Shown: in pieces, positions 32,307-48,359 of the stretch | How positions within the stretch are numbered: position 1 is the first letter of the stretch | How the letters are laid out: each line of letters opens with the position of its first letter | Source of the DNA: Bacteriovoracaceae bacterium UBA4573 | GTDB lineage: Bacteria; Bdellovibrionota; UBA1018; UBA923 | Reading direction: 5' to 3' | DNA: 64,000 nt | Assembly: GCA_002387735.1 (NCBI GenBank) | Contig: DGKJ01000108.1 | Location: 473-64,472, forward strand | The notes under the pieces: generated by a model | What the model was told of the DNA's origin: nothing | Seen by the model: the letters and a program-made list of their open reading frames with translations, nothing else | Database searches by the model: none | Made by a program: the position numbers and the translations under genes

Positions 32307-32570
32307 CTTCTTCTTTGTCAGTGCTTCTATTAACCAGGAGGCTCTCCATCCCGTTTTTGGAGTTCCCCCAACCCACACGCCAATACAGTAAAGCAAACAG
32401 CGTACCACTTAATGAGTACACTTTCATTCTCCGGTCACGCTGTTTTTGAACTGCCGCAACTCGCTGAAGTATTTCGTGATTTTAAAATGACCAGCAGCGT
32501 TAACTTTGGCCAATTGCTCGACTCAATAGAACTTTCTCGCCGAGTGCAAAAGGACTCCGGTAGCAGTTTG

Positions 32571-33410: not shown

Positions 33411-35423
33411 ATGACAAGCTCAGAAAAAAAAGCAAACCGCCTTGCGGCAGAAACCAGCCCCTATTTGTTGCAACACGCACAAAATCCGGTGGATTGGCAC
33501 GCTTGGAACGACGAGTCTTTGCAACGCGCAAAAGCGGAAAATAAACCTATCTTGCTGTCTATTGGCTATTCCTCGTGCCACTGGTGCCACGTCATGGAAC
33601 ACGAGTCTTTTGAAAATGCGGCGATTGCCAAACTCATGAACGAAAATTTTATTAATATCAAAGTGGATCGCGAAGAACGCCCCGATATTGACCAAATTTA
33701 CCAAAACGTAGCGCAGCTCATGACTCGCAGCGGTGGATGGCCACTCACCGTTTTTCTGACTCCGGATCTTAAACCGTTTTTTGGGGGGACCTACTTTCCG
33801 CCGGAAGATCGTTACGGAAGGCCGGGCTTTCCTAGAGTACTAACGGCTCTCGCCGAAGCTTTTAAGAACGATCCGAATTCGGTTGCCGAAAACGCCAACC
33901 GTCTCACCGACGCAATTTCAAAACTTGAGTCCGTTTCAAACGAAATCAACACCAAGCCGGATTTGACTGAATTAAAAAAAATCGCCGACCAGCTCCTAGC
34001 CCATATTGATTGGCGCAACGGGGGGCTCGGCCATGCACCGAAGTTCCCCTCTCCGATGACTTTTTCGTTTCTGTGGCGCTGGGGAACTATCACTCAAACT
34101 GGCCAAGCCCAGGATGCCGTCGTGCTGACGCTTGAAAAAATGGCTCGCGGCGGAATTTACGATCAACTCGGTGGCGGATTTCACCGTTACAGTGTTGATG
34201 AGTCCTGGAGTGTGCCTCACTTTGAAAAAATGCTCTACGACAATGGATTGTTACTTAAACTTTATTCAGAAGTTTTACTTTCGCCACTGCCCCACTCTGT
34301 TTCAGAAAAAGAGCGCGCACTTTTTTTGAAGACCATTCAAGAAACCGTCGATTACGTTATGCGAGAAATGGCGGACCCCGAAACAGGGGCTTTCTACAGC
34401 GCGCAAGACGCAGATAGCGAAGGGCGAGAAGGCGCTTTTTTTGTTTGGAGTAAAAATAACTTTGTCGACATCTTAGTTAAAAATGGTTTCAGCGAGACTG
34501 ATTCCCTGGCTTTAGCCAACCACTTCGGAGTCACCGAGGCGGGTAACTTCGAACACACTAACGAAACGGTTCTATGGACAAGCCCCCAAGAGGCGCTGGA
34601 CCGCCACGACCTCGTCGCAAAGGCGCGCTCGGTGCTTTTTGCTGAACGTGAACGTCGCGAAAAACCCTTTCGCGATGAAAAATCTCTAACTGGCTGGAAC
34701 GCCCTCATGATTTCGGGTTTAGTCTGGGCATCACTTGCGCTCAAACGTCACGGCGACCCGGCCCGGGCCAACGAGGCTCACCAGGCCGCCCAACGCGCAT
34801 TTGATTTTCTGCGAACCACGCTTAGTCAAAGTTCCAATCATTTATGGGCCACCGCGAAAGATGGCAAAGCAAAAATCGAAGGCTTCCTCGATGATTATGC
34901 TTTTGCCACCACCGCCGCAATCGACATGGCGAGGTTGGGTCACCTCGACGCCATAGATTTGGCCGCACAATGGAACGAAACTATTTGGAAAGAATTCTTA
35001 GATGATACCGGAACGGGATTTTATTTTACCAGTTCCAGGCACGAACGATTGATTGCTCGGCCGAAAACAATTTACGATCAAGCGATTCCATCTGGCACCG
35101 CTACCACCTTGTGGAACTCGTTGCTGCTGGCAGAACTTCGGGCGGATTCGGCATTAGCCGCAAAAGCGGAAGATGTGCTTTTTCGTTTGTTTACGCCTTT
35201 ACTAAATAGCGCTCACGGGATGGCGGAACTCGCCAATGCATCCTTGTTGTGGCTCTGTTCACCGGGGGTCGTTAACTTTGAACTAAAAGAGTTGCACCCT
35301 TTTTGGCTGGTAAAAGGTAACGAGAGCGTCGATCAGAAAAAGACCGTCTGCCAACGCCAAAGTTGCGTGGCGGCGCCCGCTAATTTCTCACTTCAAGAGG
35401 CTCTTTTACGAAGTTTAAAATGA
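33411..35423 (+). CDS. thioredoxin-domain protein of the YyaL/DUF255 family (N-acylglucosamine-2-epimerase-like C-terminal domain)
   Basis: The N-terminal thioredoxin-like [15 protein letters not shown] (CxxC), a length of 670 aa and an alpha/alpha-toroid-type C-terminal region are typical of YyaL-family proteins. Confidence 0.75.
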
Positions 35424-36145
35424 AAATAAATTGCGACCACTAACACTGGAATACTAATGGCCTGGGAAGTCGACAAGTAATTGTCAACGATATGGCCGCG
35501 GATTGAGTCGCCTCGCCAAAATTCTAGCACGTAGCGACCGATGGCGTATGACCCTGCAAACCAGACGGCTAACTCGCCTTCGTAGGCTTTGCGGGTACGG
35601 CGCCACCAAAGAACACCAAACGTAACCATCAACAATGCAAATTCGTAAAGTTGCGTCGGGTGCAAGTGGCCAAGACTGGGTTCGTTGGCCATCACCACTC
35701 CCCACGGTAAATCGGTCGGCGTACCGAAACAGCAGCCGCCAAGCAAGCAGCCGAGGCGTCCGATTCCGAGTCCCATGCAAAGCCCCATGGTCATGCCATC
35801 AATACGCGGCCACACTGCGAGTTTGTTCCAAGCAAGGTAAGCTGCGAGATAAAGTGTGCCGATGATAAGACCACCGTAATAAACAAATCCTGCACGCGCG
35901 TTAAAGAGCACCGCCAAAATATCTACGCCCGGATCATTAATGCGGGTAAATACGTACACAATGCGGGCGCCGACCAAACCCATTAGAAAAGTAAAGACCA
36001 CCATGCGCGTGGTTTGATCGCGGTTCCATCCGGCGCGTTTGGCCTCGGAGTCCAAAACAACCAACGAAACAAGTACGCCGATCGCCATAGCAAGGCCGTA
36101 GGAAAACAACTCGAAGGTACCGATTCTAAAAAGTATGGGGTGCAT
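35393..36145 (-). CDS. lgt: prolipoprotein diacylglyceryl transferase
   Basis: Starting at the ATG at 36145, [25 protein letters not shown] aligns with the E. coli Lgt N-terminus. Conserved GARIVYVF and HPTQLYE motifs. The ORF-track start at 36181 is a TTG. Confidence 0.85.
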
Positions 36146-36195
36146 GCTTGCATCGTAGCAAACAATCGGCGAAAGTGACAACGAGGGTTTTAAAC

Positions 36196-36729: not shown

Positions 36730-37580
36730 ACTCTAATATAACCGCGCGCGTTCGCGCGCAGTACGAGCGGTATCCCTACCCCCACGTCCCGTGGTGGAAG
36801 TTGTTGTTTCTACCAGGCACCAAACAACTAGAGCGCCTGGCCGTACCCAACGCGCGAACTATACTCGTAGCGGGCTGCGGCACTTTGCAAGCAACCTTAG
36901 TGGCGCGCGCCAACCCACAATCACAAATTGTCGCCCTAGATTTAAGTGAAACCGCTCTTCGCAAAGCGCAGCGAATTGCAAAATTCTGCGGTGTCGGTCA
37001 GGCAATTCGATTTGAGCAAGGGGATCTGCACGAGCTGACTTATCCGGACGCCAGTTTTGATTACTTGGTATGCACCGGTGTGCTGCACCATTGTGAAAAA
37101 CCCCAAAGTGCACTTTCCGAACTTGCTCGCGTGTTGGCCGACCAAGGCACTCTTCGTCTCATGACCTATGCTCCCAAATCGCGTAGTCAAATTTACCAGC
37201 TTCAACGACTGGTCAAAGGTTTGAACTTATCCGAAGCCAAACGCACACTCGACTCACTTTCTCGAACCCATCAACTTCGCTATGCATATCGGAGCTACTC
37301 CGACGCACGCACGAAGGCTGGTTTCGTAGACGGTTTTCTCCACGCGCACGATCAACCAATAGCTTACTCTGATTTTGAAAAATGGTGTAGCTCGCTCGGT
37401 TTAGAAGTGCTTCGAGTCGATCTCCCGCCCGGCGAATCGTTAACCGAACTTGCTAGGGCCCTCGGCATTGATCAGCAAACGTTCTCGAACTACTCGACCT
37501 GGAAGCAACTAGAAATTGTCGACAACCTTAGTGGCTTTCGAATGAATCCAACGCTGGTACTTAAAAAAATTAGGGCGTGA
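36717..37580 (+). CDS. class I SAM-dependent methyltransferase
   Basis: Motif I ILVAGCGTLQATLVARA, motif II VALDLSE and the downstream LVCTGVLHH. Confidence 0.7.
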   Translation: MGLLNSNITARVRAQYERYPYPHVPWWKLLFLPGTKQLERLAVPNARTILVAGCGTLQATLVARANPQSQIVALDLSETALRKAQRIAKFCGVGQAIRFEQGDLHELTYPDASFDYLVCTGVLHHCEKPQSALSELARVLADQGTLRLMTYAPKSRSQIYQLQRLVKGLNLSEAKRTLDSLSRTHQLRYAYRSYSDARTKAGFVDGFLHAHDQPIAYSDFEKWCSSLGLEVLRVDLPPGESLTELARALGIDQQTFSNYSTWKQLEIVDNLSGFRMNPTLVLKKIRA

Positions 37581-38922
37581 TTTTTACAAGCTCTTTTTCG
37601 CGCTCGACTCGAGCCCGCTCAAGAGAGGCATTGACTCGTGCCACGCGATCAAGAAGCGCACCGGGCGGCAAATCACGAAAATACTGCAACTCGTTTAAAG
37701 CACTTCGAATCGGTACCATTCGAAGATCGTAACTTACGAAAACCGCCTGCCCTGAAAAGTTCTGATTCTCAACTTTTCGAGCCTGAGGTCGATTACTAAA
37801 CGCAAACTCTCGATGTCGCTCTAGTGCTTCTTTAAAAGTGAGCACTTCAATCGTTTCGATTTTCTTTAGTAAATCTAAGAGCAGCGGTTCATTTAGGTTA
37901 CGGCGCACGAGCCAAGCAATAAAAAGCGGCGCTTCGACGTATTCCAAAATTGATGGCAAGTGTTCGTTGAGGTGCGAATCTTTAAGGCCGCTGTCGAACA
38001 AGCGCATGATTTCTTTTTGGGCTAGTTCAGTCATCTCGTCATCAATGGGGTGTATCGCAAGTCGAAACAACGTCCGCAGGGCGGTGTACTGCCCCGATTG
38101 GGCGACCTCCCCTAGGCGGCGGGTTATCGAAGCTTGAAAATTCGAAAAAAAGTACGCGTTCGGCAGATCTGCGACCAAACCTTTATCACTCGACGTCCAC
38201 TCTCCAAACGTCGATCCTTGGTCCAATACTTTAATCGCCGCGGCTACCCGTCGATGATCGTCGAGTGCTTCGGCAAGATTCGCAAAACCCGTGTCAATGG
38301 CAACGTACTCAAGCAGAGGAATTTCGCTTTCGTAGGGTTCCCGAGCCGCTTGTTCGAAGAGCTGCCAACGAATTTGGGGAGCAGCAGAAAAATGTAAATA
38401 CAACGCCATTCGATCTTCTGTCGGAAGCACGCGAGAGAGTACAAAACGCGAGGCCCAACGTGGCGGTAATGCTAGTGAAGCGAGCGCGTCTAAATTGGCC
38501 TCGTGAGTGCGTTCAAGAATCGATACCTGATTTCGTGCTCCTGTGTGAAGTCCCACCAACAGAAAGCGAAAAAGTAGCTCTTGAAGATCGGAACCACTTA
38601 CTGAGCGTAACGAAACAGCCGTGTTGCGCAAGACTTCTACGGCCTTCACCCGCGTGGTTTCGTTCAACGCTGGTGAAACTGCAATGGCTTCTAGCTTTCG
38701 AAGTAAACCTCGGATTGGTTTTTCGTCGGTAGAGTCTATGGATTTTTGTGTGAGCGTTTCTAGTTCGCGAGTTAAGTTGGTAAGTTCGCGACGCTGCGAT
38801 AAATCGTTATCGGTTAATCGCCCTACTAGTTCTTTACAGCTTTCCGCAAGGACCACCCCCGGTGTGAGCGTAACCAAAAGAAGTGCCCCGGCGAAAGTAA
38901 CCCCAATTCCCCTTACCTTCAT
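37570..38922 (-). CDS. hypothetical secreted protein (about 450 aa)
   Basis: The ATG at 38922 gives signal peptide MKVRGIGVTFAGALLLVTLTPGVVLA. The ORF-track start at 38949 is a TTG. Confidence 0.45.
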   Translation of the reverse strand: MKVRGIGVTFAGALLLVTLTPGVVLAESCKELVGRLTDNDLSQRRELTNLTRELETLTQKSIDSTDEKPIRGLLRKLEAIAVSPALNETTRVKAVEVLRNTAVSLRSVSGSDLQELLFRFLLVGLHTGARNQVSILERTHEANLDALASLALPPRWASRFVLSRVLPTEDRMALYLHFSAAPQIRWQLFEQAAREPYESEIPLLEYVAIDTGFANLAEALDDHRRVAAAIKVLDQGSTFGEWTSSDKGLVADLPNAYFFSNFQASITRRLGEVAQSGQYTALRTLFRLAIHPIDDEMTELAQKEIMRLFDSGLKDSHLNEHLPSILEYVEAPLFIAWLVRRNLNEPLLLDLLKKIETIEVLTFKEALERHREFAFSNRPQARKVENQNFSGQAVFVSYDLRMVPIRSALNELQYFRDLPPGALLDRVARVNASLERARVEREKELVKITP

Positions 38923-38942
38923 GGCTGTGGCTTGTACTAATG

Positions 38943-38972
38943 TTGACAATAAAAATCAATGATCGGTATACT
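38943..38972 (+). promoter_or_regulatory. sigma-70-like promoter (TTGACA-N18-TATACT) for the FKBP gene
   Basis: TTGACAataaaaatcaatgatcggTATACT lies 30-60 nt upstream of the ATG at 39001. Confidence 0.4.
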
Positions 38973-39000
38973 TTTCACAAACGTAGGAAAGGGAAACGCA

Positions 39001-39465
39001 ATGAGTACACCGTCGAAATTACATCGTTTTTTGAACCTTGCCGTTCTCGCCATGCTTGCGCTAAGCCTGGCATTCGTGGCCTGCACCAAAAAGGCGGCCG
39101 AAACTCAAAACTCCCAGGAGGCTACTAACATGAGCGCAATGACTCCCCTTAAGATTGAAGATTCCAAGGTAGGCGACGGCACCGAGGCGAAGGCCGGCAA
39201 CATGGTTACCGTGCATTATACGGGCTGGTTAACCGACGGCAAAAAGTTCGACTCTTCGCTCGATCGTAATAATCCGTTCTCGTTCAAACTTGGCGCGGGT
39301 CAAGTGATTCGCGGTTGGGATGAGGGAGTGGCCGGCATGAAGATCGGCGGCAAACGTAAGCTCACCATTCCACCAGAAATGGGCTACGGCGCAGCCGGTG
39401 CCGGTGGCGTGATTCCGCCTAACGCGACGCTCGTGTTTGAAGTCGAACTCTTGGGCGTGAAATAA
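39001..39465 (+). CDS. FKBP-type peptidyl-prolyl cis-trans isomerase lipoprotein
   Basis: [62 protein letters not shown] is the canonical FKBP domain. Signal and lipobox LSLAFVAC. The start was moved to the ATG with RBS aaagggaaa. Confidence 0.85.
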
Positions 39466-39486: not shown

Positions 39487-41388
39487 TTAATCTTCGCTTG
39501 GATCAAAACAAGAACTCGCACTCACGTTGGGTGTGCCACGCGAGAGTTGTTTGATGCCTTGCGCGGGGTTGCCCACGTCTTGCGGGGGCGAGAACGCCGC
39601 GTTTCGGCCAGCAGGAGTTGTACCGCCACCCACGGCAGAACAATCGGTTCCCGAACACACCTGGCAACATCCAGCTTGAGGTGTTTTTCGAACCGCATTG
39701 ATTGGGTTGTAGCTTAGTTGGCACGCGTACGTTGTATCGGTTTTCACGGCAGCCGCTGAATCTGCTAGCGAACACTCCCCGGGCGCACGGTTCAGTGGGT
39801 TCGGGTCGGCTGGTGGATAATGTTTGGCACACCAAAAGTCGTAAGGGCCAACCGGCGCAGGGAAGATCGTCGAATCAGTCGAAAGCACGATTTCTGGATC
39901 GACTGGCGTGGAAGACTGAAATGCGCACCCCTCGAACGTTGTGTCTTCTAAGTAGCGTGGCACGAACGCCTGGTAAGGACGCACCACAACGGTGCCGTCT
40001 GTTTTCTGAACTTCATTTGGCACCGGCGGAAACACCGGGCACTTTGGATTGCCGTCGATCTGATCGCCATCGATGCTCCACCCTGTGAGCGAGGCGTCGC
40101 TCATGCAGCGCTGGCCAAACTGCGCAGTTCGAAAACTAAACGGACATGGTTTGGGCCCCAATCGCGTGATTGGTTTTAACGGGTCGACGGTTGCTTTGTT
40201 GACCGGACGGTCCATTACGTAGAGCGTGTTGATTTGTTGTGACTGATCGAGCGGGTCGCCGTCGGCGTTGTAGCGCAAAGGATAAGCTGCTGAATATTTT
40301 CGCAGCCGAAACGTGCGGCGAATCTGGCCGTTGCTATCGGCGAAACTTGGACACGAGCCATCAGACTGCGGTTTGGCGGCATAGCCGATGGTTCCAATAA
40401 TACTCTGACTTGTTCCGATCGGAACAACCGTGAGCGAGTTTACTTGCACGGGAAAATCTTTGCTCGAATTGAGCGCCAGCGCAAAGGTGGTGTCCATCGG
40501 GTAAAAACTTTGAACTCCAGCTATGTTGGTGGTCGGGCACACAAAACCATTGGCAGAAGAGTTCGGACTGCCCAGTTCGGAGTTTCGAATATAAAAATCG
40601 TAGTAGTAGCTTTGGCCAGTGAACGCCCCCGCGCCCAATACGAAGTCGTTGGCCACCGGTACCGTGTTAGTAGTGGTGCCATTGCTCACGTTTTGAAGAT
40701 TGCGAAAAATGCCCTGGTTCTTTTGCGCACGATCGTAACAAACGTAGTGATAAATGTTCTTGTAAGAGCGCCCTTCGATGTCGCGAAAGTCACCCTGCGA
40801 CGTCACGGTAGTTTTGGTGACAAGTACCGTGTTAGTCGCAAAACTTTGAGTACTGCCAGCCGCTGAATTTGGAATAATACTCACGCGCACCTGAGTGTTG
40901 TCGAGAATTTCGCTATTGGTCCAAGCTGGCGGGAGCGCGCAGCGCATTTGAAAACTCGTGATTTGGTCGGGCTCGGCGTCGGCGGTGCGAGTAATAGTAG
41001 TGGAATCACTCGAATTGGTTTCCGACCAGCTGTAGCGGCAGCTACAGGCTTTACCCGTGTCGGCGCCTCCGCCCGACTGCACTACGCAAACTGAGTTAAG
41101 GGTGGCAGTGGCACCCGCATTTAAATAGAGGTTTAAATGAGTTGCCGGTGCACCGGTGGCGCCACTTGCACCGCTCGGCCCGACTGCTTCGAAAGTGGCG
41201 TTGTAGATATTAAACGTCGGCCCGGCGCTGCTGCTGCTCGTGCCTGAAGTACTCGCAGCGTTTTTTCGTACAATCGAAGACGTATCGCCGCCGGTATTCA
41301 CGCACCCCGAAAGCGCGCCAAACGAAAGCGTGGCCACCGCGAATAACGCGGCGAAGAGGATGTGGGTGTTATTCATTTTGGTTTTCAT
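39487..41388 (-). CDS. Cys-rich secreted lipoprotein, paralog A (about 634 aa), function unknown
   Basis: AGGAGG RBS plus ATG. Lipoprotein signal MKTKMNNTHILFAALFAVATLSFGALSGC. About 20 Cys in motifs such as KACSCRYSWSE, QMRCAL and AGCCQVCSGTDC. Acidic C-terminus DPSED. Confidence 0.55.
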   Translation of the reverse strand: MKTKMNNTHILFAALFAVATLSFGALSGCVNTGGDTSSIVRKNAASTSGTSSSSAGPTFNIYNATFEAVGPSGASGATGAPATHLNLYLNAGATATLNSVCVVQSGGGADTGKACSCRYSWSETNSSDSTTITRTADAEPDQITSFQMRCALPPAWTNSEILDNTQVRVSIIPNSAAGSTQSFATNTVLVTKTTVTSQGDFRDIEGRSYKNIYHYVCYDRAQKNQGIFRNLQNVSNGTTTNTVPVANDFVLGAGAFTGQSYYYDFYIRNSELGSPNSSANGFVCPTTNIAGVQSFYPMDTTFALALNSSKDFPVQVNSLTVVPIGTSQSIIGTIGYAAKPQSDGSCPSFADSNGQIRRTFRLRKYSAAYPLRYNADGDPLDQSQQINTLYVMDRPVNKATVDPLKPITRLGPKPCPFSFRTAQFGQRCMSDASLTGWSIDGDQIDGNPKCPVFPPVPNEVQKTDGTVVVRPYQAFVPRYLEDTTFEGCAFQSSTPVDPEIVLSTDSTIFPAPVGPYDFWCAKHYPPADPNPLNRAPGECSLADSAAAVKTDTTYACQLSYNPINAVRKTPQAGCCQVCSGTDCSAVGGGTTPAGRNAAFSPPQDVGNPAQGIKQLSRGTPNVSASSCFDPSED

Positions 41389-41399
41389 CTCGCCCCTCC

Positions 41400-43391
41400 T
41401 CATTCGCTGTCCTGTAATACGCATAGTGGAAACTTCACCAGTCGTTCAAACTGCGTGGCGGTATTTTCAGAACCCAATGAAATTCCGTAGTGAATATTAT
41501 TGTTGTTGCGATCTTTGCGGTACGGCTTGAATTTACGCGCACTGGTGGAATTGGGATCGGTCATGTCTTCCATGCGCACGCTAGCGGGTGTAACTACGTA
41601 TAGATAATCAAACGTTGAACTGGCATCGATGTCGATCGACGATCTGCGATACGGGTCGGGCCCAATAATGCCGTTGAAAAACAAACGCCCGGCCGCGTCG
41701 GTGTCGGCCTCGATACAAGCGGTGCTATTGCTACCCATGAGCCACACATTTTCGCCGCCGATTGCTGGCAAGTCCCATAATCCCGTAAGGCCAGGCGTAC
41801 AGTAATTTCCGCCTTGGGTGTAATTCGCCGCCACTCTTCCGGCGCCAGTAGCACCGTAGTCGTAACAACAAGACCCCCCGCCATTTACGGCCTGCACTGC
41901 GGCTGAGGAACAAGCATTTCCAGCATTTAAGTAGCCACCTCCAGGTGCCCAATTATCGCCAATCACGCCACTCGTACTGCAGTTGCCGAAATAGGTGCCT
42001 CCAGCGCCCGACGGTACCATTGGCCGTGGTCCTATGATTCCCGGTGTGGTTCCTGATCCTTGAGGATCTGCATCCCAACAAGCCGAGTTTTGGTCCGCCG
42101 TTGGTTCCGAACACTCCTGATTCTGGGTCGTGCAGTAGAGATAACCAATTTGTCCTGAATTACTCGCCGATTCCATGGTGCGTTTTTCTAAACTTGCACG
42201 AAAGCGCCAGAGTTTTGCCCATTTCTTGCCAGCAGGTAAATTGACCACGCTGGTGTTAGGACATTCTTGATTCGCATTCGGCAGTGCCGCAAAACCGATA
42301 ATGTCTTTACCCACCGATGAGGCCGTTGTTTTCGCAAGCGTCACCGGCGCAGAAATTCCGGTGGTAGTGCAAGAGAGCGACGGGTTCACCATGTTTGCCG
42401 GCGTGTGCAACGTGCACACTGGTTGTTTGAACGTGCCGTCCTGAAATTTCGCGAGTGCGAAATCGTGACGATTTACTAAAAACTTTTCGCAATCCGCCTC
42501 AGTACCAGTCGGACAGTCGGGGTCGATTCCCACTTTGTCGTCGGGCGGGTAAATGGTGTTGTCGTTTGTTGCGCTACCGCCGTAATCTGAAAACGAAAGT
42601 GGATCTACGCTATAAACTTCGTAACGAATCGAAGCATCGAACGTTGAATCGTTCGGCACGGGCGGGCACTCAAAACCCGGCGTGTTTTCTACACTCTCTC
42701 CTATCGCCACCGCATGGGCGCCGTAATCGAGCCCCAGTGACGTCGTGTAAAAATTGTAGGCCTGACTCAAGAGCCAGGCTTTTGGATCTTGTAGATTTTG
42801 ACCGTAAAAATTAGTAGCCGACCGTGATTTGCGAATCACGTCGCGACACATGTAGCGGCTGGTTTCAACGTAATTTGCCGCCACGCTCGGATCCAGTGAT
42901 GGACTTATTGAATTCATGAACACTCGCGTTTTATTAGAATTCGCGTTGGCCGAATTGATGAAAATCGAAACATCGTAGTAACCCGCGTTCGATGAAACTT
43001 GAGTGTAGAGACAACGGGCCATGTTCACTTCTACATAAGAAAGTGCCTGAAACCGTTGGGCAGGAACTCCACCAGATTCGGTAAAATCAAATTGGCACTG
43101 GCAAGCATCGGCCGTTGGGCAGTAAGTGGCCAACTGACCATTCGAACCAATGAGCTCAATGGTAGTATCGGGGTTCAAGTTCGACCGGACCACTTTTGAG
43201 ATTGTAATAAAATTCGCGCTCGCAGTTGTGGTCGCACTCGAACTATTCGAGGCCACTTTAGAAGCCGCGGTCGATAGACCGTTGGCTCCCGTGTTCAAGC
43301 AGCCCGTGAGCGAAAATGAAATAAAGGTAATGAAAAATCCGCACAGGATTTCTAAAAAAAGCGTCTGCTTTTTTTCCCAACTACTCCCCAC
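41400..43391 (-). CDS. Cys-rich secreted lipoprotein, paralog B (about 663 aa), function unknown
   Basis: A GTG start at 43391 gives (M)GSSWEKKQTLFLEILCGFFITFISFSLTGC. Shares collinear motifs with paralog A (ACQCQFDFTE vs ACSCRYSWSE; NMARCLY vs QMRCAL; GGSCCYDY vs AGCCQVC). The ORF track extends to a GTG at 43472. Confidence 0.5.
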   Translation of the reverse strand: MGSSWEKKQTLFLEILCGFFITFISFSLTGCLNTGANGLSTAASKVASNSSSATTTASANFITISKVVRSNLNPDTTIELIGSNGQLATYCPTADACQCQFDFTESGGVPAQRFQALSYVEVNMARCLYTQVSSNAGYYDVSIFINSANANSNKTRVFMNSISPSLDPSVAANYVETSRYMCRDVIRKSRSATNFYGQNLQDPKAWLLSQAYNFYTTSLGLDYGAHAVAIGESVENTPGFECPPVPNDSTFDASIRYEVYSVDPLSFSDYGGSATNDNTIYPPDDKVGIDPDCPTGTEADCEKFLVNRHDFALAKFQDGTFKQPVCTLHTPANMVNPSLSCTTTGISAPVTLAKTTASSVGKDIIGFAALPNANQECPNTSVVNLPAGKKWAKLWRFRASLEKRTMESASNSGQIGYLYCTTQNQECSEPTADQNSACWDADPQGSGTTPGIIGPRPMVPSGAGGTYFGNCSTSGVIGDNWAPGGGYLNAGNACSSAAVQAVNGGGSCCYDYGATGAGRVAANYTQGGNYCTPGLTGLWDLPAIGGENVWLMGSNSTACIEADTDAAGRLFFNGIIGPDPYRRSSIDIDASSTFDYLYVVTPASVRMEDMTDPNSTSARKFKPYRKDRNNNNIHYGISLGSENTATQFERLVKFPLCVLQDSE

Positions 43392-43630
43392 GTTTTGTTC
43401 CCCCACTGTTCTTTTCGTGCAAGAAGCGCGCAAAGTTGAGTTAAGGGTGCAAAACGAAGGGGGTTTTCGCACTCCACTCGGCAGGAAGGTTCGGCAAACC
43501 CCGCTAAGTGGGCGATTCCTGCCCGCCGCGCTGTCGAACTTTTAGGCGAAAACCCCGGGAAACCTAGCAATTTTTGCCTATAACCCATTGTTATTATTCA
43601 GAAAATACGAAAAAATGATACTTAACTAAC

Positions 43631-44857
43631 ATGCGCTCCTTTAAGGCCCTTCTCGAGAAGCCTTTTTTGATCTGGTTTATTGCATCGATGCTCTATGGCG
43701 GAGCTTTCTGGTGGAAAGCTCGTTTCGCAGAACCAAGCTTAGGGGAAACGAAATCAATTCAAATATTGGCGGAATTTTCGCAGAGCACCTTTCCTCCGAA
43801 AATCGACCTCGTGCGTTCGCTCGACGATTACGGCGGCCATCTCGCCTATTACGCTCTCATGGGGCGCGTACACCAGCTTGCCGGGGGCGACTTACTCACA
43901 ATGCGCACAATTCATTTATGCGTGGTTTTAGCTGCATTGTTTGTATTTACTCTCCTCGGTTTTCACTACACCTACCGCAATCGGCTTAACCCGCTTTGGA
44001 TCAGCCTCGGCACTCTTTTGTTAGCAGCAAACCCCTATCTCTTCGAAGCGGCGATGCGGGTGGGTTATATTGGTTTTTTTCTATTCGTTTTGCTCGCCTC
44101 GCTCTGGGCCCTCGAGAAGGAACGCACGGCCTGGGCAACTTTGTTGTTGAGCTTGGGTGTCCTCGTCGATTGGCGTGCAGTGATTTTAGTGCTCGTCACC
44201 TTGTGGACCCGCACCACTGGCGAAACCGGACGCTTCGTACGAATTGAAAAAATTTTATTGCTGGCCCTGCCGCTGGTTTTTGCCTCTTTGCCGCTTTTTG
44301 CGTGGAAAGGCATTGTTCCAACCGGCGAAACGCGCGAATGGTGGACCTTCATACTGGAACATCGCAATCTCGTACGTCTGGACTTGTGGTTTTACTCAAT
44401 CGCGCTTCTGCCAATCTACAGCTTATTTTTTTCATGGAGCTGGGGATTCCGGGCTCGCGCCCGATCGATGAGTTTGGGTGCCGTGGCTGCCGCTCTTTTA
44501 ATTCCCATGTATTTTATATTTCCAGTCGTGCCTCAACCTGAACCTTGGGCCGCCCCAGGAAGTGGCAACGCGGTGCCGCTTGGATTGGTCGATTGGGCAT
44601 TAACAGAAGTTGCCGGACCGTATAAAAATCTGGTACTTTTTGTGCCGTGGATAGTGGGTGCGTTTCTTTTTGCGCAAGCGATCTTGCTCGATATTCTTGA
44701 GCGTTCGCGGGTGCTCCGCGCCTTCATTCTATTTTTCTTCCTGGTCGCACCCGTTTCGTTCGGGGTGGTTGATCAAGGGTTTTTAATCGTGCTTCCGTTC
44801 GTGCTGCTCTTCGGTTTGTCCGAGGCACTCGTAGGAGACGAAGGCAAAATCGTCTAA
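43631..44857 (+). CDS. polytopic integral membrane protein (about 10 TM), possibly a glycosyltransferase-C-like or DUF2029-type protein
   Basis: 408 aa with many hydrophobic segments. No catalytic motif recognised. Confidence 0.45.
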   Translation: MRSFKALLEKPFLIWFIASMLYGGAFWWKARFAEPSLGETKSIQILAEFSQSTFPPKIDLVRSLDDYGGHLAYYALMGRVHQLAGGDLLTMRTIHLCVVLAALFVFTLLGFHYTYRNRLNPLWISLGTLLLAANPYLFEAAMRVGYIGFFLFVLLASLWALEKERTAWATLLLSLGVLVDWRAVILVLVTLWTRTTGETGRFVRIEKILLLALPLVFASLPLFAWKGIVPTGETREWWTFILEHRNLVRLDLWFYSIALLPIYSLFFSWSWGFRARARSMSLGAVAAALLIPMYFIFPVVPQPEPWAAPGSGNAVPLGLVDWALTEVAGPYKNLVLFVPWIVGAFLFAQAILLDILERSRVLRAFILFFFLVAPVSFGVVDQGFLIVLPFVLLFGLSEALVGDEGKIV

Positions 44858-46502: not shown

Positions 46503-46691
46503 ACAAAGATTTTAGAAGAAACCGCTTAAAATGAAATTCAATCAACCACATCACTCGGCAAGTCCTGCCTATTCCATTGGGAGTCCCCGCTGCTTTTGCC
46601 GAGTGACCACGAAATAGTAGCTGTTTTCAAAAAACACCTAATAAAAAATCCCGAAAAAATCGATGAGATTCCCAAGAGAGGTGCGTCGCAC

Positions 46692-47561
46692 GTGTCAATC
46701 GTCGGAGTCATCGTAGTTTTTGGAGCTGTGATCGGCGGTTTCGCTATGGCGGGCGGAAACCTCATGGTCCTCTTCCAACCAGTCGAGTTGCTAATTATCG
46801 GCGGGTCGGCTGCGGGTTCTCTCTTAATTTCATGCTCCACTAGTCAATTGAAACGAATCATTCACGCCATCACCGGTGTGTTTACTGGTGGCGGAATATC
46901 GAAAGACGCGTACCTAGAGCTTTTAAAACTACTGTTCGAAATCACCAAAACTGCCAAAGCAAATCCACTCTCTATTGAAGCTCACGTCGACAACCCAGAG
47001 GGCAGTGAAATTTTCAAAAAATATCCGGGTGTGCTTAAAAACCACCACGCGCTAGGATTCCTGTGTGACACTTTAAAAGTACAACTGAGCGGTTCAATGT
47101 CGCCCTACGATCTCGAAGATTTAATGGACGCCGACATGGCCGCCGCGCACGCCGAGGAATTTCAAGTTCCATCCACCGTATCGCGAATCGGTGACGCCAT
47201 GCCTGGTCTCGGAATCGTGGCCGCGGTTCTAGGTGTGGTACTCACGATGGGAAAACTGACTCAAGGTAAAGAAGTAATCGGTCATAGTGTGGCCGCCGCA
47301 CTCGTGGGAACTTTCATCGGGATTCTTTTGTCCTACGGATTGTTCCAACCGATTTCCGCAAAAATCGAAGGTAATCTCAATGCCGAAGGTGATTACATAA
47401 AATGCATCAAAGCCTGTCTGCTGGCTTTTGCAAAAAACTGCGGTCCCAAAGTTTGCGTAGAGTTTTCACGACGTACGATTCCACCCGAAGTTCGTCCGAC
47501 CTTTCAGGAAGTCGACGCAGCAACTAGTTCTGGTGGCGGCAAAGAAGCAAAGGCGGCATAG
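46692..47561 (+). CDS. motA: flagellar motor stator protein MotA
   Basis: SIVGVIVVFGAVIGGFAMAGGNLMVLFQPVELLIIGGSAAGSLL aligns with the E. coli MotA N-terminus (MLILLGYLVVLGTVFGGYLMTGGSLGALYQPAELVIIAGAG). A GTG start at 46692 with an upstream AGAGAGG was chosen. The ORF-track ATG at 46596 would add 32 non-homologous residues. Confidence 0.7.
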   Translation: MSIVGVIVVFGAVIGGFAMAGGNLMVLFQPVELLIIGGSAAGSLLISCSTSQLKRIIHAITGVFTGGGISKDAYLELLKLLFEITKTAKANPLSIEAHVDNPEGSEIFKKYPGVLKNHHALGFLCDTLKVQLSGSMSPYDLEDLMDADMAAAHAEEFQVPSTVSRIGDAMPGLGIVAAVLGVVLTMGKLTQGKEVIGHSVAAALVGTFIGILLSYGLFQPISAKIEGNLNAEGDYIKCIKACLLAFAKNCGPKVCVEFSRRTIPPEVRPTFQEVDAATSSGGGKEAKAA

Positions 47562-47564
47562 CCC

Positions 47565-48359
47565 ATGGCTGGCGGCGGCGAAATCATTGTCATAAAAAAG
47601 AAAAAAGCCGCAGGTCACGGTGGCGCCCACGGGGGTGCTTGGAAGGTGGCTTACGCCGACTTCGTTACTGCTATGATGGCATTTTTCCTTGTGATGTGGC
47701 TCATGGGTGCCGACGAAGAAACCAAACAAGCCGTGTCTCATTATTTCAACCATCCAAATACGCCCTACAAACAGGGCGGAGACCCTCAGTCTAACGCAGC
47801 CCATCCGATGGGCGAAAGCGAAGGACACGGCGACAATGTTCTGGCAGGCGCTTCGGGATTGTTTCCTGAAGATTTAATTGATCGTCCTATTCCGCATCGT
47901 GATCTGATGAAAGAAAACGTCACGATCAGTAAAATGATTGAAGACTTACTCGAAGGAAATGTTTTCGGAATGGACGTGACTGAAAATCAAATCAAGTTTT
48001 CGCTGCCCGAACACGTGTTGTTCGATGCCGGCAGCGCGACCCTGCACCCCAACGTCGACAAGTACATGGCGTTATTGGGTAACGTCTTAAAGAGCTTCAA
48101 AGGCTACGTAAGAATCGAAGGTCACAGCGACGATACCCCTACGAACGGCACACGTTTCGCCAACAATTACGAACTTTCCATGGCTCGCGCCGTTTCTGTA
48201 ATGCAATATCTCGTGAAAAATCACGGTATGGGCGAAGATCGGGTGATTCCAACCGGCGCCGGCGCCCGAGAACCTTTAGTTCCGAACACCTCCGTCGAAA
48301 ACAGAGCAAAAAACCGACGCGTGGAGCTCACCTTAATGTACGAATACCCATCCAACTAG
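47565..48359 (+). CDS. motB: flagellar motor stator protein MotB (OmpA-like C-terminal domain)
   Basis: AGHGGAHGGAWKVAYADFVTAMMAFFLVMWLM closely matches the MotB N-terminus and plug/TM. The C-terminal OmpA-like RVELTL. Confidence 0.85.
   Translation: MAGGGEIIVIKKKKAAGHGGAHGGAWKVAYADFVTAMMAFFLVMWLMGADEETKQAVSHYFNHPNTPYKQGGDPQSNAAHPMGESEGHGDNVLAGASGLFPEDLIDRPIPHRDLMKENVTISKMIEDLLEGNVFGMDVTENQIKFSLPEHVLFDAGSATLHPNVDKYMALLGNVLKSFKGYVRIEGHSDDTPTNGTRFANNYELSMARAVSVMQYLVKNHGMGEDRVIPTGAGAREPLVPNTSVENRAKNRRVELTLMYEYPSN

What the first reader, a model, noticed from the sequence alone, without database searches (positions are those of the whole stretch)
39487..43391. Tandem pair of paralogous roughly 650-aa Cys-rich lipoproteins of unknown function
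Two adjacent same-strand genes both encode lipobox-bearing proteins (LSGC / LTGC), each with about 20 cysteines arranged in collinear motifs: ACSCRYSWSE vs ACQCQFDFTE; QMRCAL vs NMARCLY; AGCCQVCSGTDC vs GGSCCYDYGATG. Both have Ser/Thr/Asn-rich low-complexity N-terminal linkers and acidic C-termini. This looks like a tandem duplication of a disulfide-rich surface or periplasmic protein family with no recognisable catalytic motif. It could be adhesin-like, S-layer-like or prey-interaction proteins. They are divergently arranged from a polytopic membrane protein (43631..44857).
Basis: seen in the sequence. Interest (0 to 1): 0.5.

Follow-up and report, generated by a model that had tools for sequence, protein, structure and literature searches.

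The report
Paired cysteine-rich lipoproteins of Bdellovibrionota
Two neighbouring genes encode distantly related, disulfide-rich, lipid-anchored envelope proteins that always occur as a pair in uncultured Bdellovibrionota and fit no described family; their function is untested, but they most likely form a covalently linked, non-enzymatic envelope complex.

Summary
The genes are real. A is 39487-41388 on the minus strand (633 aa) and B is 41400-43391 on the minus strand (663 aa). Both have a lipobox, a Ser/Thr/Asn-rich tether and 19 or 21 conserved mature cysteines.

Direct BLASTP between them is not significant. Profile comparison shows true but ancient homology over the N-terminal ~330-380 residues only (hhalign E 9e-14; 4.6e-9 after trimming; shuffled controls E >= 0.08). 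The C-terminal Cys-rich halves are unrelated.

The B-then-A order holds in every one of 16 related loci, and the genes often overlap by 4 nt. The A superfamily has at least 190 clusters at 50% identity. Every named member comes from a Bdellovibrionota-type metagenome genome. There is no Pfam, NCBIfam or PDB match.

Both models place an IPT/TIG-like Ig domain behind the tether. The rest has no confident fold match.

The mature cysteine count is odd in 106 of 119 A-type and 13 of 13 B-type proteins. The odd cysteine lies in the shared N-module. Neighbouring lipoproteins have even counts.

Best reading (confidence about 0.4): a disulfide-linked B-A heterocomplex with a structural or binding role. 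The divergent membrane protein is weakly GT-C-like and is linked only in this sub-clade. Interest is moderate.

The parts
39487..41388 (-). Gene A: 633-aa Cys-rich lipoprotein (the 645-aa ORF from 41424 is a 5' over-extension)
   Evidence: ORF. ATG at 41388 lies 7 nt after AGGAGG. Called as 633 aa on public contigs. 35 homologues found. Superfamily of at least 190 clusters at 50% identity.
41400..43391 (-). Gene B: 663-aa Cys-rich lipoprotein, upstream partner of A; its stop lies 11 nt before the start of A
   Evidence: ORF. GTG start behind GGGGGA. An identical 663-aa product is called on 12 contigs. 17 homologues found.
41302..41388 (-). A signal peptide with lipobox L-S-G-C (Cys29 of the 633-aa protein; codon 41302-41304)
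   Evidence: Read from the sequence. The Cys is invariant in 26 of 26 family members. Asn at +3 occurs in 94 of 133 superfamily members.
43299..43391 (-). B signal peptide with lipobox L-T-G-C (Cys31; codon 43299-43301)
   Evidence: Read from the sequence. The Cys column is 88% conserved.
41227..41301 (-). A Ser/Thr/Asn/Gly-rich flexible tether following the lipid-anchored Cys
   Evidence: pLDDT is below 50 over residues 37-66 in 645-aa numbering. Composition is 0.61 S+T+N+G+A across the superfamily.
40267..41055 (-). A part of the N-terminal module shared with B (A residues ~124-386 in 645-aa numbering). It holds the CxC-[RQ]-[YF]-x-[WF]-x-E, RC, YxCxD, G[FY]xCP and IG[YF]AAxP..CP blocks. Its front part is an IPT/TIG-like Ig domain.
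42174..43112 (-). B part of the shared N-terminal module (B residues ~94-406), including the confidently modelled IPT/TIG-like domain (~60-160) and a 4-Cys insertion
39490..40194 (-). A family-specific C-terminal Cys-rich region (12 Cys, including the invariant GCC-x2-C-x4-C cluster and a Cys 6 residues from the end)
   Evidence: Invariant columns. No similarity to the B C-terminus. Low AF2 confidence.
41403..42155 (-). B family-specific C-terminal Cys-rich region (10 Cys, including an invariant CC pair and a Cys 6 residues from the end)
   Evidence: Invariant columns. No similarity to the A C-terminus. Low AF2 confidence except residues 590-663.
43631..44857 (+). Gene M: divergently transcribed 408-aa polytopic membrane protein (~11-12 TM, N-in, 63-aa first periplasmic loop), weakly GT-C-glycosyltransferase-like. 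It is linked to the pair only in this sub-clade.
   Evidence: 23 homologues on the same contigs as A and B. Found next to B in 8 loci and absent beside the pair in L011, L015, L016 and L017. Topology. Weak hits to GT87, PIG-U and NF046093.
43418..43433 (-). Conserved TTGCGCG-N4-TTGCA box 27 nt upstream of the B start codon. It has sigma-54-like -24/-12 spacing but TG in place of GG. It is a candidate promoter or operator of the B-A operon.
   Evidence: One match in the window against 0.23 expected. The same box sits upstream of B in L004, L006 and L007.

Best explanation
B and A are co-transcribed, anciently diverged paralogues that are exported and lipid-anchored. They work together as a disulfide-stabilised heteromeric envelope complex with a structural or binding role, not a catalytic one.

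Proposed sequence of events:
1. Sec export, then diacylglyceryl modification and signal-peptidase-II cleavage at the lipobox Cys. This is inferred from the sequence.
2. A 25-45-residue Ser/Thr/Asn-rich tether holds an IPT/TIG-like Ig domain away from the membrane. The domain is shown at model level.
3. The shared beta-rich N-module and the family-specific C-module fold oxidatively, with about 9 intramolecular disulfides in A and about 10 in B. This is inferred from conserved Cys that are gained or lost in pairs.
4. Each protein keeps exactly one surplus Cys, located in the shared N-module. It most likely forms an intermolecular disulfide, B to A or to a further partner. This is inferred from Cys parity.

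In this sub-clade the divergent GT-C-like membrane protein M may glycosylate the tethers or make a glycopolymer that the pair handles. This step is weakly inferred.
For: Lipoprotein signals and tethers:
- Supported.

Homology and domains:
- The N-modules are homologous.

Pairing of the genes:
- B-then-A order and adjacency hold in all 16 loci examined, down to about 23-32% identity for A.
- A 4-nt stop/start overlap occurs in L003, L004, L005 and the P0199 locus.
- In the window the A ribosome-binding site directly follows the B stop.

Cysteine counts:
- All Cys are conserved.
- The mature Cys count is odd in 106 of 119 A-superfamily proteins and 13 of 13 B proteins. Counts of 19, 21, 23, 25 and 27 dominate.
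- The N-module count is odd and the C-module count is even in 82 of 93 A-type and 9 of 9 B-type proteins.
- The neighbouring lipoproteins X1, X2 and others in the same operons have even counts.

No sign of an enzyme:
- No His, Ser or Glu is invariant across the superfamily.
- No enzyme family was hit.

Protein M:
- M resembles GT87, PIG-U and the NF046093 'cell surface glycopolymer formation' family. 11 of 23 members match in one register.
- Its topology is GT-C-like, with invariant acidic residues in periplasmic loop 1.
Against: - There is no direct evidence that A and B interact. No multimer model or co-variation analysis could be run.
- The AF2 models are weak: A has mean pLDDT 62 and B has 47. 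The C-terminal halves are essentially unmodelled.
- The surplus Cys could be a free thiol, a metal or cofactor ligand, or a catalytic nucleophile.
- The parity counts depend on regex-defined lipoboxes and predicted gene starts. The sequences are related to one another, and 13 of 119 are even.
- Location is unknown: inner membrane, inner leaflet of the outer membrane, or cell surface.
- M is absent beside the pair in L011, L015, L016, L017 and L019. Its family matches are far below curated cut-offs, 15-24 bits against 150.
Confidence: 0.4

Rival explanations
1. A and B are independent, surface-exposed ligand-binding or adhesin lipoproteins. Their architecture resembles the Bacteroidota SusE/F and SGBP-B proteins: lipid anchor, tether, Ig-like stalk domain and a distal binding domain. 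They would be used for prey or substrate recognition. They sit next to each other because they are co-regulated, not because they bind each other.
For: - The different C-terminal modules in A and B could give different ligand specificities.
- The long S/T-rich tethers suit projection from a membrane.
Against: - There are no SusC/D-type or other uptake genes nearby.
- Independent binders would not be expected to show strict pairing, translational coupling and the shared odd-Cys rule.
- The family also occurs in the magnetotactic lineage of FG-1.
Confidence: 0.2
2. One or both are enzymes of a new fold that act on envelope polymers such as peptidoglycan, a glycopolymer or lipid. The surplus conserved cysteine would be the catalytic nucleophile, and M would supply or modify the substrate.
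For: - One Cys beyond an even number is conserved across more than 100 diverged homologues.
- A conserved acidic and polar block, GDFRD-EGRSY-NI-HYVCYD, is present in the close A family.
- A GT-C-like neighbour is present.
- MltA lies in the wider neighbourhood.
Against: - His226 and most polar residues of that block are not kept in distant A-type proteins or in B.
- No His, Ser or Glu is invariant across the superfamily.
- No match to any enzyme family or solved enzyme was found at E <= 1-10.
Confidence: 0.12
3. They are redox-active or metal-binding envelope proteins. The vicinal CC and CC-x2-C-x4-C clusters, or the CxC motif, would bind a metal or shuttle electrons or thiols.
For: - Invariant GCC-x2-C-x4-C in A, CC in B and CxC in both.
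- A DsbH-type thioredoxin gene lies about 4 kb away in the window and within the 8-kb flank in L004.
Against: - There are no CxxCH, CxxC-thioredoxin or known metal-site signatures, and no Pfam hit.
- Cys are gained and lost in pairs, as expected for structural disulfides.
- The thioredoxin gene is not consistently linked.
Confidence: 0.07
4. The two genes are unrelated, and the shared motifs are chance resemblances between Cys-rich, low-complexity secreted proteins.
For: BLASTP between the two proteins is not significant. The best E values are 0.057 and 0.12.
Against: - Profile-profile E is 9.3e-14, and 4.6e-9 after removing signal peptide and tether.
- A second, independent alignment of distant A-type proteins against B gives E 5e-11.
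- Reversed and shuffled controls give E >= 0.08.
- Reciprocal HMM hits are collinear in nearly all members.
- B and 22 distant A-type proteins have the identical Cys split of 11 in the N-module and 10 in the C-module.
Confidence: 0.02

Closest known systems
Chlamydial cysteine-rich outer-membrane complex proteins OmcA/OmcB (Pfam Chlam_OMP3 / Chlam_OMP6). The comparison rests on general knowledge, not on a tool result.
   Same: - Adjacent co-transcribed genes encode Cys-rich envelope proteins, at least one of them a lipoprotein.
- Both are built largely of beta-sandwich domains.
- The chlamydial proteins function through intermolecular disulfide cross-linking in a bacterium with a biphasic life cycle. 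This matches the mechanism proposed here from the odd-Cys rule.
   Different: - There is no sequence relationship: no Pfam hit at E <= 1.
- OmcA is tiny (about 9 kDa) and is not a paralogue of OmcB. Here both partners are about 650 aa and share an N-module.
- Cross-linking is only inferred here.
Bacteroidota surface lipoproteins of the SusE/SusF/SGBP-B type (e.g. PDB 5e7g, 7k44, 6e57, 3tc9)
   Same: - The architecture matches: lipobox Cys, flexible linker, N-terminal IPT/TIG-like Ig 'stalk' domain, then distal domains.
   Different: - There are no CBM-like distal domains, no polysaccharide-utilisation locus and no SusC/D neighbours.
- The Bacteroidota proteins are not Cys-rich and are not obligate pairs.
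Protein O-mannosyltransferase (GT39) with its Ser/Thr-rich lipoprotein substrates in Actinobacteria, and GT-C enzymes in general (GT87/PimE, PIG-U-like, NCBIfam NF046093 'AZOBR_p60025 family cell surface glycopolymer formation protein')
   Same: - M is a ~12-TM protein with an N-in topology and a long first periplasmic loop carrying invariant acidic residues.
- It sits beside genes for lipoproteins with Ser/Thr-rich tethers.
- Weak, register-consistent profile hits were found.
   Different: - The hits are far below family cut-offs (15-24 bits against 150; GT87 E 0.028).
- M has no match to any solved structure by sequence.
- M is missing beside the pair in several lineages.
- Glycosylation of A and B is not shown.

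Membership tests
Bacterial lipoproteins (Lgt/LspA substrates; PROSITE PS51257-type signal) | N-terminal basic n-region, hydrophobic h-region and a lipobox [LVI][ASTVI][GAS]C within about 15-35 residues of the start | tested here: met
   A reads MKTKMNNTHILFAALFAVATLSFGALSGC. B reads MGSSWEKKQTLFLEILCGFFITFISFSLTGC. The lipobox Cys is invariant in the A family and 88% conserved in B. A lipobox was found in most of the 190 superfamily representatives.
Bacterial lipoproteins (Lgt/LspA substrates; PROSITE PS51257-type signal) | Actual diacylglyceryl modification and signal-peptidase-II cleavage | not testable with these tools
   This needs palmitate labelling, globomycin sensitivity or mass spectrometry.
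Chlamydial Cys-rich OMPs (Pfam PF03504 Chlam_OMP6 / PF03503 Chlam_OMP3) | Significant match to the family profile | tested here: not met
   The Pfam scan of A and B returned no family at E <= 1. Longer relatives also returned none.
Chlamydial Cys-rich OMPs (Pfam PF03504 Chlam_OMP6 / PF03503 Chlam_OMP3) | Intermolecular disulfide cross-linking in the envelope | not testable with these tools
   There is only indirect support: an odd mature Cys count in 106 of 119 A-type and 13 of 13 B-type proteins.
IPT/TIG Ig-like domain (Pfam PF01833; E-set fold) | Sequence match to the TIG profile | tested here: not met
   No Pfam hit at E <= 1.
IPT/TIG Ig-like domain (Pfam PF01833; E-set fold) | Seven-stranded Ig-like beta-sandwich superposable on solved TIG domains | tested here: inconclusive
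   [not shown]
Bacteroidota SusE/F/SGBP-type surface glycan-binding lipoproteins | Encoded in a polysaccharide-utilisation locus next to SusC/SusD-like genes, with C-terminal carbohydrate-binding domains | tested here: not met
   No SusC/D or CBM families were found in any of the loci. A and B have no Pfam hits.
GT-C fold glycosyltransferases (for the neighbour M) | Polytopic membrane protein (8-13 TM), N-terminus in the cytoplasm, long first extracytoplasmic loop with conserved acidic residue(s) | tested here: met
   Alignment-averaged hydropathy gives ~11-12 TM, a basic N-terminus and a 63-aa loop 1. Loop 1 has invariant E39 and near-invariant D66 and H70. D180 is also invariant.
GT-C fold glycosyltransferases (for the neighbour M) | Significant profile or structural match to a recognised GT-C family | tested here: inconclusive
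   NF046093 is matched by 11 of 23 members in the same register, best E 7.6e-7, but at 15-24 bits against a cut-off of 150. GT87 gave E 0.028 and PIG-U gave E 7.6e-4, one member each. There is no PDB sequence match.
Sigma-54 (RpoN) promoters (for the box at 43418-43433) | GG at -25/-24 and GC at -13/-12 with fixed spacing (TGGCACG-N4-TTGCW) | tested here: not met
   The spacing and the TTGCA element are present, but the GG doublet reads TG in the window and in L004, L006 and L007.

The most novel reading that the evidence does not exclude
B and A are the building blocks of a covalently disulfide-cross-linked lipoprotein lattice in the Bdellovibrionota envelope. This would be a functional analogue of the chlamydial OmcA/OmcB complex that evolved independently. 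Each protomer would use its single surplus cysteine in the shared N-module to link to its partner. This would give the small, fast, osmotically challenged cell a redox-switchable exoskeleton. In this sub-clade a dedicated GT-C enzyme would glycosylate the tethers.
Probability: 0.1. Interest if true: 0.7.

Novelty: new variant of a known kind. Interest (0 to 1): 0.4.

Why it matters
Bdellovibrionota are studied as predators and possible 'living antibiotics', yet most of their envelope proteome is unannotated.

This pair defines a sizeable, lineage-restricted protein superfamily of at least 190 clusters at 50% identity. It has no curated family, no solved structure and no confident fold for two thirds of its length. 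It comes with a simple, testable rule: one surplus cysteine per protomer, always in the shared module.

If the pair proves to be a disulfide-linked envelope complex, that would point to a lineage-specific solution for envelope stability or surface display. It would also provide a phylum marker.

If not, the pair remains an ordinary lineage-specific set of hypothetical lipoproteins.

Tried and rejected
- Direct BLASTP of A against B was not significant, so profiles were needed.
- Scans of A, B, M and ten or more longer relatives against Pfam, NCBIfam, PADLOC and PHROGs found nothing for A or B.
- PDB sequence searches with profiles of A, B and M and with one M homologue found nothing meaningful.
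- Foldseek against the PDB found nothing at E <= 0.001. The afdb50 library was unavailable.
- Homology of the C-terminal halves was tested three ways and rejected.
- I looked for a fused B-A protein as interaction evidence. The A2-HMM hits inside A-type proteins overlap the A1 hits, so they reflect homology and not fusion.
- The X1 and X2 lipoproteins of the distant four-gene operon were searched for in the window and close loci and are absent.
- The Azospirillum plasmid record carrying AZOBR_p60025 is not in the collection. A tblastn of an M homologue against plasmids found no match.
- Literature searches for the family, for NF046093 and for Bdellovibrio Cys-rich lipoproteins found nothing relevant.
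- The Rfam and promoter/terminator scans of the locus gave nothing above background.
- A link to MotAB/ExbBD genes was considered. It was dropped because the linkage is seen in only 3 of about 9 loci.

Full report
**1. What is at the coordinates**

Two adjacent minus-strand ORFs fill 39487-43472.
- The downstream gene, A, has a 645-codon ORF. An AGGAGG box sits 7 nt before the ATG at 41388, and public gene calls give 633 aa. A is therefore 39487-41388.
- The upstream gene, B, starts at the GTG at 43391 behind GGGGGA. It is called as 663 aa on 12 public contigs.
- The B stop (41400-41402) lies 11 nt before the start of A, and the ribosome-binding site of A directly follows it. The two genes must be co-transcribed.
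- No terminator, promoter or Rfam element stands out inside the locus.
- GC content is uniform at about 0.50-0.53, so nothing suggests an island.

**2.

Several points hold.
- Both proteins start with a basic n-region, a hydrophobic core and a lipobox (LSGC in A, LTGC in B).
- Each then has a 25-45-residue Ser/Thr/Asn/Gly/Ala-rich stretch.
- A has 20 Cys, every one in a column conserved in at least 96% of 26 homologues. B has 23 Cys, of which 22 are conserved.
- Both end in an acidic tail a few residues after a conserved Cys.

The claimed paralogy fails the simplest test. BLASTP gives E 0.057 for the signal peptides and 0.12 for 25% identity over 130 residues. Profiles rescue it.
- Family alignments of 26 A and 16 B homologues match with hhalign probability 98.1%, E 9.3e-14, over 310 columns.
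- With signal peptide and tether removed, the match is 96%, E 4.6e-9, over 228 columns.
- A reversed and ten column-shuffled versions of the B alignment never score better than E 0.08.
- An independent alignment of 22 distant A-type proteins matches B at E 5e-11.
- HMM-to-sequence hits are reciprocal and collinear in almost all members.
They also include YxCxD, G[FY]xCP and IG[YF]AAxP...CP.

Homology stops at about residue 390-410. As a positive control, the C-terminal halves of distant and close A-type proteins match each other at E 4e-28.

**3. Distribution and gene context**

*Distribution.*
- Word-indexed searches found 35 relatives of A and 17 of B. All are unnamed or 'hypothetical'. Their source genomes are labelled Bdellovibrionota, Bacteriovoracia, Oligoflexia or 'Deltaproteobacteria' MAGs, and A and B relatives often lie on the same contigs.
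- An exhaustive HMM search of 1.84 billion cluster representatives found 190 A-type clusters, 171 of them at E <= 1e-10. Most are 650-950 aa, with lipoboxes and 20-28 Cys.
- None of the proteins checked has a Pfam domain.
- Named members are all MAGs. They include a Bdellovibrionia MAG and 'Bdellovibrionota bacterium FG-1'. FG-1 is a magnetotactic member of class UBA1018 (PMC13200544).
- A narrow-pattern scan of 185,579 species genomes found 10 loci.

*Order of the pair.*
- In every locus with sequence available the order is B then A on one strand.
- A 4-nt stop/start overlap occurs in L003, L004, L005 and the P0199 locus.
- In many loci an RluD-type pseudouridine synthase follows the pair.

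*Linkage of M.*
- The divergent 408-aa membrane gene M (43631-44857) accompanies the pair in eight loci of the close clade.
- M is absent beside the pair in L011, L015, L016 and L017, and no M-like gene is called beside it in L019.

*Distant clade.*
- There the pair is preceded by two further lipoprotein genes, X1 and X2, about 320-370 aa each. This makes a four-lipoprotein operon.
- X1 and X2 have no counterpart in the window.

**4. Structure**

- AlphaFold2 with the family alignments gave a moderate model for A: mean pLDDT 62, with values of 70-91 for the beta-rich residues 70-400 and poor values after 410.
- The model for B was poor: mean pLDDT 47. Only residues 60-160 and 590-663 are usable.
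- Foldseek against the PDB found nothing at E <= 0.001. The AFDB library was not available.
- What is shown: an IPT/TIG-like Ig domain directly after the tether in both proteins.
- What is not shown: any fold assignment for the middle and C-terminal parts.

**5. The cysteine arithmetic**

- After removing the lipid-modified Cys, the mature Cys count is odd in 106 of 119 full-length A-type proteins and in 13 of 13 B proteins. Counts of 19, 21, 23, 25 and 27 dominate, so cysteines are gained and lost in pairs while one remains in surplus.
- I split each protein at the end of the shared module. The N-module then holds an odd number (7 or 11) and the C-module an even number (8-16) in 82 of 93 A-type and 9 of 9 B-type proteins.
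- B and 22 distant A-type proteins share the same 11 + 10 split.
- In the same operons the other lipoproteins (X1, X2 and further neighbours) have even counts.
- Across the whole superfamily the invariant residues are 15 mature Cys plus Gly, Pro, Asp, Arg and Lys positions. No His, Ser or Glu is invariant.
- Asn at +3 after the lipobox Cys occurs in 94 of 133 A-type proteins. It may be a sorting determinant.

**6. The neighbour M**

- M has no Pfam or PDB sequence match.
- 11 of its 23 homologues match NCBIfam NF046093 ('AZOBR_p60025 family cell surface glycopolymer formation protein') in one register: M residues ~65-210 against model positions ~95-230. The best E is 7.6e-7, but scores are 15-24 bits against a cut-off of 150.
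- One member each hits GT87 (E 0.028, 180 residues) and PIG-U (E 7.6e-4).
- Hydropathy gives ~11-12 TM segments, a basic cytoplasmic N-terminus and a 63-residue first periplasmic loop. That loop has invariant E39 and near-invariant D66 and H70. D180 is also invariant.
- This layout fits a GT-C glycosyltransferase, but membership is not established.

**7. Interpretation**

*What is shown.*
- The window holds a conserved two-gene operon for two lipobox proteins.
- They share a homologous N-module that begins with an Ig-like domain.
- They have different C-modules with fully conserved Cys patterns, and each carries one surplus Cys in the shared module.

*What is inferred (confidence about 0.4).*
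- The proteins are exported, lipidated and oxidatively folded.
- They act as a heteromeric complex joined by an intermolecular disulfide, B to A or to a third partner.
- Their role is structural or binding, not catalytic.
- In this sub-clade M may glycosylate the Ser/Thr-rich tethers or build a glycopolymer that the pair handles. This last step is weak.

*Rivals.*
- Independent SGBP-like surface binders or adhesins (0.2).
- Enzymes of a new fold with the surplus Cys as nucleophile (0.12).
- Metal or redox proteins (0.07).
- Chance resemblance (0.02, refuted by the profile tests).

**8. Comparison with known systems and verdict**

- The closest functional analogue is the chlamydial OmcA/OmcB pair of Cys-rich, disulfide-cross-linked envelope proteins. 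This comparison rests on my own knowledge. Membership is excluded by sequence.
- The closest architectural analogue is the Bacteroidota SusE/F/SGBP-B type of lipoprotein with an Ig-like stalk. Membership is excluded by context and by the lack of binding domains.
- The family belongs to no curated family.
- I rate it a new variant of a known kind, namely tethered, disulfide-rich envelope lipoproteins. Interest is moderate at 0.4. It is a well-defined, lineage-wide piece of protein 'dark matter' with a clear, cheaply testable prediction, but with no functional evidence yet.

Noticed in passing
window 43418-43433 (minus strand); also L004:5761, L006:5773, L007:5882: A conserved box, TTGYNYG-N4-TTGCA, lies 25-60 nt upstream of the B start codon in four species. 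It has exactly the sigma-54 -24/-12 spacing and the TTGCA element, but TG where GG is expected. The window has one match against 0.23 expected by chance. It could be an atypical RpoN promoter or a direct-repeat operator.
   Followed up: partly
window 43533-43545 (minus strand); also L004 ~5693, L005, L007 ~5746: A second conserved box, CTAAAAGTTCGAC, lies in the M-B intergenic region 66-134 nt upstream of the sigma-54-like box. It may be an activator or repressor site, or part of the divergent M promoter.
   Followed up: no
window 33411-36181 and 38959-39465: Genes for lipoprotein maturation or envelope protein folding cluster near the pair. They are a DsbH-type thioredoxin (33411-35423, +), Lgt (35393-36181, -) and a lipobox-bearing FKBP prolyl isomerase (38959-39465, +). 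The FKBP stop codon lies only 21 nt from the stop of A on the opposite strand. Lgt and the thioredoxin are also near the pair in L004, and Lgt in L005. This is probably conserved gene order and not a functional unit.
   Followed up: partly
L016:2012-12517, L017:5812-12862, L019:5970-12559: In distant relatives the pair is the end of a four-lipoprotein operon, X1-X2-B-A, followed by rluD and a convergent class II ribonucleotide reductase gene. X1 and X2 are weak paralogues of each other. In L016, X2 has grown to 1514 aa through a Kelch/beta-propeller-like insertion.
   Followed up: partly
window 46596-48359 (+); L017:2448-4255; L019:2235-4012: Proton-channel motor genes lie within 3-6 kb of the pair in three diverged loci but not in six others. 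They are MotA/MotB in the window, MotA/MotB/FlbD in L017 and ExbB-ExbD-ExbD in L019. The linkage is too inconsistent to interpret.
   Followed up: partly
window 37570-38949 (minus strand): A 459-aa (450 aa as called) secreted protein with a signal peptide has no family match. Only a chance-level Pfam hit was found, at E 0.09. It lies between the FKBP gene and a SAM-methyltransferase gene.
   Followed up: no
window ~32392-32407 (minus strand; L001:20985): A near-canonical sigma-54 promoter sequence, TGGTACGCTGTTTGCT, is present. No same-strand gene is called immediately downstream of it, so it may be a chance match or may drive an unannotated transcript.
   Followed up: no
L010 (JBBRLF010000156.1): A clear B-A pair (A 50% identical) lies on a contig binned as 'candidate division WWE3'. 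This is almost certainly a binning error, because every other carrier is labelled as Bdellovibrionota-type.
   Followed up: no
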